From Escherichia coli (GTDB lineage: Bacteria; Pseudomonadota; Gammaproteobacteria; Enterobacterales; Enterobacteriaceae), in assembly GCF_017348835.2 (NCBI RefSeq), contig NZ_CP071375.1: a stretch of 64,000 bases of DNA; one strand, written 5' to 3'. Shown in pieces: positions 45,701 through 49,329 of the stretch (position 1 is its first letter; the number at the start of each line of letters is the position of its first letter). The position numbers were made by a program.

Positions 45701-48700
45701 ATATTGGCTTTCGCTTCGCTATCAATCACCGGACCGATATCAGTGGTCAGGCGACCCGGATTACCCATCCGACATTCGGCCATTGCGCCGCGCAGCATTT
45801 TCAACGTGTGGTCGGCAATCTCATCTTGCAGGCACAGCACGCGCAGTGCCGAACAACGCTGACCCGCACTGTCGAACGCCGAGGCCAGCACATCTATTAC
45901 TACTTGTTCGGTTAGTGCTGAAGAATCGACAATCATCGCGTTCATGCCGCCGGTTTCAGCGATGAGCGGAATAGGGCGACCCTGAGCGTCCAGGCGGCTG
46001 GCGATATTGCGCTGCAGTAACGTAGCGACTTCGGTTGAACCGGTAAACATCACCCCGCGTACGCGATCATCACCCGTCAGTTGCGCGCCCACGGTTTCAC
46101 CCCGACCTGGCAGCAATTGCACCACGCCTGGCGGTACACCCGCTTCCAGCAAAATGGCGATCCCTTGCGCGGCAATCAGCGGCGTTTGTTCTGCCGGTTT
46201 TGCCAGTACGCTGTTACCTGCCGCCAGTGCGGCAGCGATCTGCCCGGTGAAAATCGCCAGCGGGAAGTTCCACGGGCTGATACACACCACAGGCCCTAAT
46301 GGACGGTGGGTTTCGTTAGCGAAATCATCCCGCACCTGTCCGGCGTAGTAGTGGAGAAAATCGACCGCTTCGCGCACTTCGGCAATGGCGTTACTGAAGG
46401 TTTTTCCGGCTTCACGCACCAGAATACCAATCAGTTGCTGCATCTGGCTTTCCATCAGCACGGCAGCGCGATGCAAAATCGCCGCGCGTTCAGCCGGAGG
46501 CGTGGCAAACCAGATTGGCGCGTTATTAACCGCACTTTCCAGCGCCTTTTCTACTTCACACGGCGTGGCTTCACGCACATAGCCCACAATATCTTTCGGT
46601 TCCGCAGGGTTAATAACGGGCGACATCTCACCTGCCGCTACCGGTTGTTCCAGCATGGGCAAGGCCTGCCATTTTTGCAGTGCACTATTAAGCAGGGCAG
46701 AAGAGAGCGAGGCCAGACGGTGTTCGTTAGCGAGATCCAGCCCTGCCGAGTTGTCGCGCCCGTGACCATAAAGATCGCGCGGCAGGGGAATTTTCGGATG
46801 CGGTAATCCAGTTTGCCCTTCCTGTTGCGCCAGTTTTTCTACAGCAGTGACCGGATCGGCGACCAGTTCATCCAGTGGCAAAGAGGTGTCGGCAATACGG
46901 TTAACAAACGAGGTGTTAGCACCGTTTTCCAGCAGGCGACGCACCAGATACGCCAACAGCGTTTCATGTGTGCCAACCGGGGCATAAATACGACACGGAC
47001 GGTTAAGTTTGCCGTCGGCAACTTTCCCGGTGACCTGCTCATACAGTGGCTCGCCCATACCATGCAGGCACTGGAACTCGTACTGACCCGGATAGTAGTT
47101 TTGACCTGCCAGTTGATAAATTGCCGCCAGCGTATGGGCGTTGTGCGTCGCGAACTGCGGGTAGATTAGATTCGGCACCGCCAGCAGCTTTTTCGCACAG
47201 GCGAGATATGAAACGTCGGTATACACCTTGCGGGTATAAACCGGATAACCTTCAAGACCGTCCATCTGCGCACGCTTAATTTCACTATCCCAGTACGCGC
47301 CTTTCACCAGGCGAATCATCAGACGGCGACGGCTGCGGGTGGCGAGATCAATCAGGTAATCGATCACCAGTGGGCAGCGTTTTTGATAAGCCTGAATAAC
47401 AAAACCGATACCGTTCCAGCCTGCCAGTTCCGGCTCGAAACAGAGTTTTTCCAGCAGATCGAGGGAGATCTCCAGACGATCGGCCTCTTCGGCATCGATG
47501 TTAATACCAATATCGTACTGACGCGCCAGCAGGGTGAGTGATTTCAGACGTGGGTAAAGCTCTTCCATTACCCGGTCATACTGGGCGCGGCTATAACGCG
47601 GATGCAGCGCCGACAGTTTGATTGAAATGCCCGGCCCTTCATAGATGCCACGACCGTTAGACGCTTTACCGATGGCGTGAATCGCCTGCTGATAGGAAAC
47701 CATATACGCCTGTGCGTCTGCGGCGGTCAGTGCAGCTTCGCCCAGCATATCGTAAGAGTAACGGAAACCTTTCTCTTCCAGCTTGCGGGCATTGGCTAAC
47801 GCTTCCGCAATGGTTTCGCCAGTGACGAACTGCTCGCCCATCAGGCGCATCGCCATATCCACACCTTTGCGGATTAGCGGTTCACCGCTCTTACCGATTA
47901 TGCGGTTCAGCGAGCGGGAGAGGCTGGCTTCGTTATGGGTGGAAACCAGTTTGCCAGTAAACAGCAGCCCCCAGGTAGCGGCATTAACAAACAGTGACGG
48001 GCTACGACCAATGTGTGACTGCCAGTTACCGTTGCTGATTTTGTCGCGAATTAACGCGTCGCGGGTGGCTTTGTCGGGAATACGCAACAACGCTTCTGCC
48101 AGACACATCAGCGCCACGCCTTCCTGCGATGACAGCGAAAACTCCTGCAATAACCCCTGGACCATACCTGCGCGGCCACTGGCATTTTTTTGATTACGCA
48201 GTTTATCGGCCAGTTGATACGCCAGTTTGTGTGCCTGTTCAGCAACTGGCTGCGGCAGGCGGGCTTGTTCCAGCAGCATAGAAACCGCTTCGGTTTCCGG
48301 GCGGCGATAGGCCGCGGTGATCGCGGCGCGGGAAACCGACTGGGGCAAAATTTGCTCGGCAAAGTCGAGGAATGGCTGGTGTGGTTCCTCTGCCGGAGTC
48401 GGTGCTTCATCGCTCTCATTGGCAGCGCCAGAAAGCAGCGCAGGTAGCTCCGGCAGAGTATCGCTGTTTTCCAGTTGTTCGAGATAAGAAAAAATCGCCT
48501 GCTTAATTAACCAGTGTGGCGTGCGATCGATACGTGTCGCGGCAGACTTAATACGCTCACGCGTCGCGTCGTCCAGCTTAACCCCCATGGTGGTGGTTCC
48601 CATGCCATTACTCCTGTTGTTCTGAAAGGTGCAACTTAACGTTATCGTGAAATATCCATGATGTTGCAACTTTGTGCAACCATGTTAAATGTGACTTGCG

Positions 48701-49329
48701 TAGCAAGCTTAAAAATGAATGAAATGTTAATAAAAGAAATCGATATGACAGGGATTAAAAAAATAACTCAGACTTTTTCTCTGCGGCAGTTAACACCTTT
48801 GAAAGGTGCAACCGAAAAAAATGTGAGAGAGTGCAACCTGATGAAAAATAGTGTCGCTGAGCACTAAAATTTAATGTAAATGGTGTGTTAAATCGATTGT
48901 GAATAACCAGCGCTTCCGGCAGGATACGGTCGCCCTGGTAAAACATAAACTCTGTTACCCCGTTCCGGTGGCAGATATAACGGCAAGTTTCGACATTGCC
49001 GATAATAATTTTTTGGAGACTTTAGATGGCTATTAGCACACCGATGTTGGTGACATTTTGTGTCTATATCTTTGGCATGATATTGATTGGGTTTATCGCC
49101 TGGCGATCAACGAAAAACTTTGACGACTATATTCTGGGCGGACGTAGCCTTGGGCCATTCGTGACGGCATTATCGGCGGGTGCATCGGATATGAGCGGCT
49201 GGCTGTTAATGGGGTTGCCGGGCGCGGTTTTTCTTTCCGGGATTTCCGAAAGTTGGATCGCCATTGGCCTGACATTAGGCGCGTGGATTAACTGGAAGCT
49301 GGTGGCCGGGCGGTTGCGTGTGCATACCG

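What the first reader, a model, noticed from the sequence alone, without database searches (positions are those of the whole stretch)
48604..49025. Multiple PutA operator hexamers in the put control region
GTTGCA/TGCAAC motifs occur at five or six positions, including a palindromic GTTGCAAC, in the divergent putA-putP intergenic region. This is consistent with autoregulation by the PutA ribbon-helix-helix domain.
Basis: partly seen in the sequence, partly recalled or inferred. Interest (0 to 1): 0.2.

Follow-up and report, generated by a model that had tools for sequence, protein, structure and literature searches.

The report
Known PutA operators in put control region
The repeated GTTGCA motifs are real, far above chance, and are the already-characterised binding sites through which the E. 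coli proline enzyme PutA represses its own gene and the proline transporter gene, so this is a textbook feature correctly recognised rather than a discovery.

Summary
Observation confirmed and interpretation supported, but the feature is already known. Window 48604-49025 is exactly the 422-bp divergent putA/putP intergenic region of E. coli. GTTGCA/TGCAAC occurs 6 times, making 5 sites: 48630-35, the palindrome 48663-70, 48675-80, 48807-12 and 48832-37. About 0.29 hits are expected (Poisson P about 6e-7), and 0 of 20,000 shuffles reached 5. It is the most enriched hexamer in the region. PutA residues 1-52 are identical to the crystallised ribbon-helix-helix domain (PDB 2GPE, 2RBF).

Across 78 other Enterobacteriaceae species, four of the five sites are invariant with fixed spacing. 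The fifth (48630-35) is confined to the E. coli clade. Other genera carry a different fifth site or none.

The two sites at 48663-80 cover the spacer and -35 of the putA promoter and coincide with a published ArcA site. Site 48630-35 lies at about +12 to +17. The pair 48807/48832 lies 52-82 bp upstream of putP P1, so how it represses putP cannot be read from the sequence.

The layout of three putA-side and two putP-side sites matches my recollection of Zhou et al. 2008 (five GTTGCA operators). That paper could not be opened here.

Side finding: a strongly covarying hairpin in the putP 5' UTR.

The parts
48604..49025 (.). put control region: the whole 422-bp divergent putA/putP intergenic region (38.6% GC against 51% for the window)
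   Evidence: It is present in 5420 of 5426 complete E. coli genomes.
44641..48603 (-). putA, the trifunctional repressor/proline dehydrogenase/P5C dehydrogenase. [quoted passage not shown]
   Evidence: NCBIfam NF008772 scores 2658 bits. Residues 1-52 are identical to PDB 2GPE/2RBF. The beta-strand residues 4-11 are essentially invariant in 80 species.
49026..50534 (+). putP, the sodium/proline symporter and second target of PutA repression
   Evidence: NCBIfam NF011948 scores 1142 bits.
48630..48635 (-). PutA operator hexamer (TGCAAC on +; AAGTTGCACC on -), about +12 to +17 of the putA transcript. By my recollection of the published numbering this is operator 5. It is lineage-specific.
   Evidence: Column identity is only 0.30 across 79 sequences. 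The site is present in the E. coli clade and E. whittamii and absent from E. albertii, Salmonella, Citrobacter, Klebsiella and others.
48663..48670 (.). PutA operator, the palindromic GTTGCAAC, in the spacer of the putA promoter (about -17 to -24). By recollection this is operator 4.
   Evidence: It is invariant in 79 of 79 distinct sequences. It lies inside the published ArcA site.
48675..48680 (-). PutA operator hexamer (GGTTGCACA on -), overlapping the putA -35 (about -29 to -34). By recollection this is operator 3.
   Evidence: Column identity is 0.998; it is lost only in E. whittamii.
48807..48812 (-). PutA operator hexamer (GGTTGCACC on -), about -82 to -77 of putP P1. By recollection this is operator 2, the one crystallised with PutA52.
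   Evidence: It is invariant. K-12 reads TTTGAAAGGTGCAACCGCAAA here. The window has A instead of C at 48815, a position that varies between genera.
48832..48837 (-). PutA operator hexamer (AGGTTGCACT on -), about -57 to -52 of putP P1 and 3 nt before the ymdG ATG. By recollection this is operator 1.
   Evidence: It is invariant, as is its 25-bp distance from the 48807 site in 77 of 78 species.
48651..48656 (-). Inferred putA -10 hexamer (GATATT on -)
   Evidence: This block is at least 95% conserved. It lies 17 bp from TTGCAC (48679-48674 on -) and 4 nt upstream of the TSS deduced. The consensus scan did not call it.
48674..48679 (-). Inferred putA -35 hexamer (TTGCAC on -), contained in the operator at 48675-80
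   Evidence: Sequence reading, conservation, and position relative to the TSS.
48646..48646 (-). putA transcription start, deduced
   Evidence: The supplement of PMC3798270 places the ArcA site 1078163-1078193 (= window 48661-48691) at -45 to -15 of the putA TSS.
48661..48691 (.). Published ArcA-P three-direct-repeat site ATGTTGCAACTTTGTGCAACCATGTTAAATG, overlapping two PutA operators
   Evidence: PMC3798270 supplement: the sequence is identical, and putA expression differs 30.8-fold in the ArcA comparison, with ArcA scored as a repressor.
48874..48906 (.). Published ArcA-P site at putP P1 (ATGTAAATGGTGTGTTAAATCGATTGTGAATAA). It implies a P1 TSS near 48889.
   Evidence: PMC3798270 main text and supplement, footprint -15 to +9. 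The GTGTTAAA block is conserved.
48841..48867 (+). ymdG small ORF (MKNSVAEH), an upstream ORF in the long putP leader
   Evidence: MG1655 annotation b4737, 1079120-1079146. A tagged protein was detected (PMC6001520).

Best explanation
These are the operator sites of the E. coli put regulon. [quoted passage not shown] On the putA side, sites at 48663-70 and 48675-80 sit on the spacer and -35 hexamer of the putA promoter, and in E. coli a third site at 48630-35 sits just downstream of the start. PutA therefore most likely excludes or blocks RNA polymerase there, which is autoregulation. On the putP side, the invariant pair at 48807-12 and 48832-37 (25 bp apart) represses putP. When proline reduces the PutA flavin, PutA moves to the membrane, leaves the DNA, and both genes are expressed. 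Shown here: the motif enrichment, the identity of the genes and of the RHH domain, and the deep conservation of four sites and their spacing. Taken from the literature: PutA binding to this spacer and the redox/membrane switch. Inferred: promoter occlusion at putA, and the way the putP-side pair works.
For: The RHH domain is identical to PDB 2GPE/2RBF. GTTGCA density is 12.5 per kb in 78 orthologous intergenic regions against 0.47 per kb in their flanks. Four sites are present in all 78 species at fixed spacing: 12 bp start to start, 25 bp within the second pair (26 in one species), and 131-136 bp between the clusters. Column identity at those four sites is 1.00, 0.998, 1.00 and 1.00, against 0.64 for the rest of the region. 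They are among only ten blocks of 5 nt or more that are at least 95% conserved. The RHH beta-strand residues are invariant in the same species. The conserved AATATC (rc GATATT) lies 17 bp from TTGCAC, and the TSS deduced from the ArcA paper places the operators at about -17/-24, -29/-34 and +12/+17. For the literature: PutA binds operators between putA and putP and represses both. gSELEX gives this spacer as its single genomic target. The 420-bp put control DNA is bound with a Kd of about 45-58 nM. From my own knowledge (Zhou et al. 2008, not readable here): five GTTGCA operators, three for putA and two for putP, and a crystal structure of PutA52 on operator 2.
Against: The putA-side pair is also a published ArcA site and contains the -35 hexamer, so its invariance is not attributable to PutA alone. 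The putP-side pair lies 52-82 bp upstream of the P1 start implied, so simple occlusion of P1 does not explain putP repression. The 48630 site is not conserved outside the E. coli clade.
Confidence: 0.93

Rival explanations
1. The conserved hexamers near putA are there for other reasons, namely ArcA-P direct repeats and the putA -35 element. Under this view their resemblance to a PutA motif is secondary.
For: The published ArcA site ATGTTGCAACTTTGTGCAACCATGTTAAATG is identical to window 48661-48691, and putA expression differs 30.8-fold in the ArcA comparison. TTGCAC within 48674-79 is the best -35 candidate.
Against: No ArcA site was reported at the equally invariant 48807/48832 pair. All sites share the same GTTGCA core, and three share GGTTGCAC, which is not the ArcA TGTTA repeat. 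One of the ArcA repeats there scores -0.1 bits. PutA binding to this spacer is documented. Overlap of the two regulators is real, but it adds to the PutA role rather than replacing it.
Confidence: 0.04
2. The motif cluster is a chance product of an AT-rich intergenic region.
For: The region is 38.6% GC, and the whole window holds no excess of the hexamer (49 found, 58 expected).
Against: None of 20,000 dinucleotide-preserving shuffles of the region reached 5 hits, and Poisson P is 6e-7. Four sites are invariant across 78 species while neighbouring columns vary.
Confidence: 0.01
3. The hexamers at 48663-48837 are conserved because they lie inside a protein-coding ORF. That ORF would be the 69-aa 'hypothetical protein' PGAP calls at 48658-48867, or the 40-aa form of ymdG.
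For: PGAP annotates this ORF in most E. coli genomes. A 3'-tagged product of this reading frame was detected.
Against: The ORF has no Pfam match. Its central part (48735-48780) is the least conserved stretch of the region, and the length of the intergenic region varies between genera. The curated MG1655 annotation keeps only the last 8 codons, and that ATG is not conserved outside Escherichia. Conservation falls in short non-periodic blocks, not in a codon pattern.
Confidence: 0.01

Closest known systems
E. coli K-12 put control region with its five PutA operators (Zhou et al. 2008, J Mol Biol 381:174; PDB 2RBF)
   Same: It is the same locus. The 422-bp region differs from K-12 at only 5 positions, none of them in a hexamer. 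PutA 1-52 is identical to the crystallised domain. The five sites and their 3+2 layout are the same.
   Different: There are only strain-level SNPs, for example A for C at 48815, three bases from the 48807 hexamer, at a position that varies freely between genera.
Salmonella enterica put control region (Hahn et al. 1988; Ostrovsky de Spicer and Maloy 1993)
   Same: It has the same divergent putA/putP arrangement and the same four invariant GTTGCA sites at the same spacing (L013, L017).
   Different: Salmonella lacks the +12/+17 site of E. coli. Its fifth GTTGCA is in the opposite orientation, about 25 bp upstream of the -35-proximal site, equivalent to window position ~48700.
Other ribbon-helix-helix repressor operators (Arc, MetJ, CopG families)
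   Same: A short recognition element is read by a beta-ribbon, and there are several copies per operator region. Two copies lie about one helical turn apart at a promoter (48665 and 48675). CopG-family chains are the next-best PDB sequence matches.
   Different: In PutA the RHH domain is fused to a 1320-residue enzyme. The effector response works by relocation to the membrane rather than by a co-repressor. The sites are spread over about 200 bp serving two divergent genes.
ArcA-P direct-repeat sites (Park et al. 2013, PMC3798270)
   Same: Window 48661-48691 and 48874-48906 are identical to the published putA and putP ArcA sites.
   Different: ArcA is a different regulator with a different motif (TGTTA repeats at 11-bp spacing). 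It shares DNA with two of the PutA operators but does not account for the other three.

Membership tests
PutA (trifunctional, RHH) operator sites of the put regulon | The sites lie in the intergenic region between divergently transcribed putA and putP. | tested here: met
   putA is at 44641-48603 (-) and putP at 49026-50534 (+). Both pass NCBIfam equivalog cut-offs.
PutA (trifunctional, RHH) operator sites of the put regulon | The adjacent PutA carries the N-terminal ribbon-helix-helix DNA-binding domain. | tested here: met
   Residues 1-52 are identical to PDB 2GPE/2RBF. The full-length match is to the trifunctional model NF008772.
PutA (trifunctional, RHH) operator sites of the put regulon | There are multiple copies of the GTTGCA core, well above chance. 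| tested here: met
   There are five sites (six hexamer hits) against 0.29 expected, and 0 of 20,000 shuffles reached 5.
PutA (trifunctional, RHH) operator sites of the put regulon | The sites are conserved in orthologous put control regions. | tested here: met
   Four of five sites are invariant in 79 distinct sequences from 78 species, with fixed spacing. The fifth is specific to the E. coli clade.
PutA (trifunctional, RHH) operator sites of the put regulon | The sites overlap the promoters they repress. | tested here: inconclusive
   This holds for putA: the sites lie at -17/-24, -29/-34 and +12/+17 relative to the TSS deduced, with the inferred -10 and -35. For putP the pair lies 52-82 bp upstream of P1, and no convincing upstream promoter was found.
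PutA (trifunctional, RHH) operator sites of the put regulon | PutA physically binds at these exact positions (footprint or gel shift). | not testable with these tools
   Only region-level binding could be read: gSELEX and gel shift on the 420-bp fragment. The site-level data of Zhou et al. 2008 are cited from memory, because the paper is not held.
ArcA-P direct-repeat binding site | The sequence is identical to a published, ChIP-supported ArcA site (and, for putP, a DNase-footprinted one). | tested here: met
   Window 48661-48691 and 48874-48906 equal the sequences listed in the supplement of PMC3798270. The footprint is described for putP P1.

The most novel reading that the evidence does not exclude
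The put control region may hold layers not yet described. (a) The fifth PutA operator turns over between lineages: it is at +12/+17 in E. coli, about 25 bp beyond the -35-proximal site in Salmonella, Kluyvera and E. albertii, elsewhere in Pluralibacter-like taxa, and absent in most genera. (b) The invariant putP-side operator pair may act on a long-leader transcript rather than on P1. That leader carries the ymdG upstream ORF and a strongly covarying hairpin with an invariant CGUUCCG loop, which sits 6 nt before a mapped RNA 3' end. This would point to an undescribed post-initiation control element for putP.
Probability: 0.3. Interest if true: 0.4.

Novelty: already known. Interest (0 to 1): 0.1.

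Why it matters
For the finding itself it matters little. It re-identifies one of the best-studied examples of an enzyme that doubles as its own repressor, in the organism where it was characterised. The comparative result adds modest detail to a known system: four operators are frozen across Enterobacteriaceae with exact spacing, and the fifth is evolutionarily labile. It also cautions that E. coli's third putA-side operator is not general. The by-product, a covarying hairpin in the putP leader that coincides with a mapped RNA 3' end, is the only item here that might merit new experiments.

Tried and rejected
- **Primary papers.** I tried to open the primary and review papers on PutA operators (PMC2665032, PMC2664619, PMC3715380, PMC3113445, PMC2242416, PMC1390768, PMC3731750, PMC5650515). 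None is held.
- **Full-text searches.** Searches for GTTGCA with proline utilization, proline dehydrogenase/putP, or PutA52 found nothing relevant. The site-by-site comparison with published data therefore rests on memory.
- **IHF.** The IHF consensus WATCARNNNNTTR has no match in the region, so I make no IHF or looping claim.
- **Rfam.** A permissive Rfam search of 48400-49200 gave no match.
- **Promoter scan.** The consensus scan gave only one weak + strand candidate (48841-48870), not above the shuffle expectation, and missed the putA promoter.
- **CRP.** I considered a CRP site (TGTGA-N6-GCAAC, 48822-37) overlapping the 48832 operator and rejected it. The second half is poor, and the first T is not conserved (CGTGAG in many genera).
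- **Upstream putP promoter.** I tried to place a promoter using the invariant TTAACA (48790-95) or TTGAAA (48799-804) as a -35. No acceptable -10 follows either, so this is unresolved.
- **MG1655 record.** It carries no binding-site features for this region.

Full report
**What is at the coordinates.** The window segment 48604-49025 is bounded by a 1320-codon gene on the minus strand (44641-48603) and a 502-codon gene on the plus strand (49026-50534). NCBIfam identifies them at equivalog level as trifunctional PutA (2658 bits, cut-off 1750) and the sodium/proline symporter PutP (1142 bits, cut-off 955). The segment plus its flanks matches 5420 of 5426 complete E. coli genomes at 90-100% identity. 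It differs from E. coli K-12 at five positions in 422. So the finding's coordinates are exactly the E. coli put control region.

**The observation.** GTTGCA or its complement occurs at 48630(-), 48663(+), 48665(-), 48675(-), 48807(-) and 48832(-).

- The other 63.6 kb of the window contain 43 hits, which predicts 0.29 for 422 bp (Poisson P(>=6) = 5.9e-7).
- 20,000 dinucleotide-preserving shuffles of the region never exceeded 4 hits.
- GTTGCA is the most enriched of all hexamers in the region.
- Three of the sites share the octamer GGTTGCAC, which occurs only once elsewhere in the window.
- All five sites have GTTGCA on the putA-sense strand. Only the palindrome also reads the other way.

**Independent test by comparison.** One scan of representative genomes with PutA residues 1-200 returned 80 loci from Enterobacteriaceae.

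- In 78 of them both gene starts could be placed. All have the divergent putA/putP arrangement, with 356-556 bp between the genes.
- The hexamer density is 12.5 per kb in these intergenic regions against 0.47 per kb in about 400 kb of flanking sequence.
- Four sites are present in every species, corresponding to window 48663-70, 48675-80, 48807-12 and 48832-37.
- Their spacing is constant: 12 bp start to start, 25 bp within the second pair (26 in one species), and 131-136 bp between the two pairs.
- In a MAFFT alignment of 79 distinct sequences, column identity at these sites is 1.00, 0.998, 1.00 and 1.00, against 0.64 for the rest of the region.
- They account for three of only ten blocks of 5 nt or more that are at least 95% conserved. 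The first two merge into one 21-bp block, ATGTTGCAACTTTGTGCAACC.
- The PutA beta-strand residues 4-11, which form the DNA-reading ribbon of an RHH fold, are essentially invariant in the same species.

The fifth site, 48630-35, behaves differently. Its column identity is 0.30, and it is found only in the E. coli clade and E. whittamii.

- E. albertii, Salmonella and Kluyvera have a GTTGCA in the opposite orientation at the equivalent of about 48700.
- Enterobacter mori and Pseudocitrobacter have a site near the same place, but in the same orientation as the E. coli sites.
- A Pluralibacter-like group has one at about 48640.
- 54 of the 79 sequences have only the four core sites.

**Relation to promoters and other regulators.** The supplement of Park et al. 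2013 (PMC3798270) lists an ArcA-P site, ATGTTGCAACTTTGTGCAACCATGTTAAATG, at -45 to -15 of the putA start. It also reports a 30.8-fold expression difference for putA in the ArcA comparison, with ArcA scored as a repressor.

- That sequence is window 48661-48691, which puts the putA start near 48646.
- The conserved AATATC at 48651-56 (GATATT on the putA strand) and TTGCAC (48679-74), 17 bp apart, are then the likely -10 and -35.
- On that numbering the PutA sites lie at about -17/-24, -29/-34 and +12/+17. This is the position expected for a repressor that excludes or blocks RNA polymerase. That step is inference.
- Two PutA operators share DNA with ArcA repeats, so their invariance cannot be credited to PutA alone.

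The same paper places an ArcA footprint at -15 to +9 of putP P1, ATGTAAATGG...GAATAA. This is window 48874-48906, implying a P1 start near 48889. The invariant PutA pair at 48807 and 48832 is therefore 52-82 bp upstream of P1. How it represses putP cannot be read from the sequence.

The MG1655 annotation places an 8-codon gene, ymdG, at window 48841-48867, beginning 3 nt after the 48832 site. Its product was detected by epitope tagging (PMC6001520). Some putP-direction transcripts must therefore start upstream of P1, close to or across the operator pair. I could not locate that promoter (and hand inspection).

**What is known.** Held papers state three things.

- Trifunctional PutA binds operator sites between putA and putP and represses both.
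- In genomic SELEX the putA/putP spacer is its only target in the E. coli genome.

PutA residues 1-52 here are identical to the chains of PDB 2GPE and 2RBF.

From my own knowledge, marked as such because the paper could not be opened: Zhou et al. 2008 mapped five operators, each containing GTTGCA. Three were needed for putA repression and two for putP. They solved PutA52 on the 21-bp operator 2 and showed that flanking bases tune affinity. K-12 has exactly the five sites found here, in a 3+2 layout. The K-12 sequence around the 48807 site, TTTGAAAGGTGCAACCGCAAA, is the reverse complement of the operator-2 oligonucleotide as I remember it.

The window strain has A for C at 48815, three bases outside that hexamer. 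This position varies freely among genera, whereas the base adjoining the hexamer is invariant.

**Rivals.**

- *Chance.* This is excluded.
- *Coding constraint.* PGAP calls a 69-codon ORF at 48658-48867. It has no family match, and its middle is the least conserved part of the region. The curated annotation keeps only its last eight codons, and that start codon is not conserved outside Escherichia.
- *ArcA and promoter elements.* These do overlap the putA-side pair. They do not explain the identical motif at the putP-side pair or at the lineage-specific sites.

**Verdict.** Interest is low.

**Things that led nowhere.** There is no IHF consensus in the region and no Rfam match. The CRP half-site reading between the putP-side operators fails on conservation. 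No full-text source for the operator map was available.

**Seen in passing: the putP leader hairpin.** The putP leader contains a hairpin at 48952-48974.

- Its loop contains CGUUCCG, which is invariant in 77 of 78 species.
- On a gap-free alignment of 51 distinct sequences, 83.9% of cells pair, against 30-44% when the partner is slid.
- The covariation score is 0.64, against 0.19 or less for the slid controls.
- Eight of nine pairs show compensatory changes.
- None of 500 shuffles reached the observed pairing or covariation.
- Frequent G-U pairs indicate that the structure forms in the putP-sense RNA.
- A Term-seq 3' end in K-12 lies at 1079260, 45 nt upstream of putP. That is window 48981, 6 nt after the hairpin (PMC7815308 supplement).
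- No U-tract follows the hairpin, and I found no description of it in the literature I could search.

**Seen in passing: variable segment downstream of putP.** The 2.5 kb downstream of putP (50536-53080) replaces 406 bp of K-12. It occurs in only 645 of 5426 E. coli genomes. It carries a 447-codon ORF with three roughly 62-residue C-terminal repeats and no convincing Pfam or PADLOC match.

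Noticed in passing
window 48952-48974 (+), loop 48960-48966; RNA 3' end at 48981: There is a conserved hairpin in the putP 5' UTR whose loop contains CGUUCCG, invariant in 77 of 78 Enterobacteriaceae species. 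Covariation is strong: 83.9% of cells pair against 30-44% in slid controls, 8 of 9 pairs show compensatory changes, and many G-U pairs place it on the sense strand. A published Term-seq 3' end in K-12 (1079260) maps 6 nt after it. It has no U-tract and no Rfam match. A CA-rich stretch lies just 5' of it, and a held paper notes that putP was suggested as a GcvB target in Salmonella.
   Followed up: partly
window 48841-48867 (+); longer forms from 48745 or 48658: The small ORF ymdG (MKNSVAEH; b4737 in MG1655) starts 3 nt after the PutA operator at 48832-37. It was first reported as a 40-codon ORF, and PGAP annotates the same frame as a 69-aa hypothetical protein spanning four PutA operators. The ATG is not conserved outside Escherichia.
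   Followed up: partly
window 50536-53080; ORF 50682-52025 (-): A strain-variable 2.5-kb segment between putP and efeU replaces 406 bp of K-12 and is present in 645 of 5426 complete E. coli genomes. It holds one 447-aa ORF with three C-terminal tandem repeats of about 62 residues. It has no Pfam match above the curated cut-off and no PADLOC match. It is followed by a low-GC (33-37%) stretch at 52200-53100.
   Followed up: partly
window 48661-48691 and 48874-48906: Published ArcA-P direct-repeat sites coincide with two PutA operators on the putA side and with the conserved GTGTTAAA block at putP P1. Redox control by ArcA and proline control by PutA therefore share the same 21-bp invariant block.
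   Followed up: partly
window 48790-48795 (TTAACA), 48823-48827 (GTGAG), 48725-48729 (TGTTA): Three further blocks are at least 95% conserved across 79 enterobacterial sequences, and I could not assign a function to them. TTAACA and GTGAG flank or separate the putP-side operator pair. TGTTA and TTAACA resemble ArcA half-sites.
   Followed up: no
L047, L051, L062, L067, L072 (upstream of putA at 2501): Some species (Klebsiella oxytoca, Cedecea, Raoultella terrigena, an Enterobacter sp. and a Buttiauxella MAG) carry 50-130 extra bp between the putA start codon and the operator pair. This lengthens the putA leader while the operator spacing is kept.
   Followed up: no
window 37245-37252: A second, isolated palindromic GTTGCAAC lies far from the put region. 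No clustering was seen there, and gSELEX reports no other PutA target.
   Followed up: no
window 42585-43682 (-) and 43936-44601 (+): The neighbours on the far side of putA are a luciferase-like monooxygenase and a TetR/YcdC-type regulator. I take these to be the rutA/rutR context of E. coli. This is ordinary.
   Followed up: no
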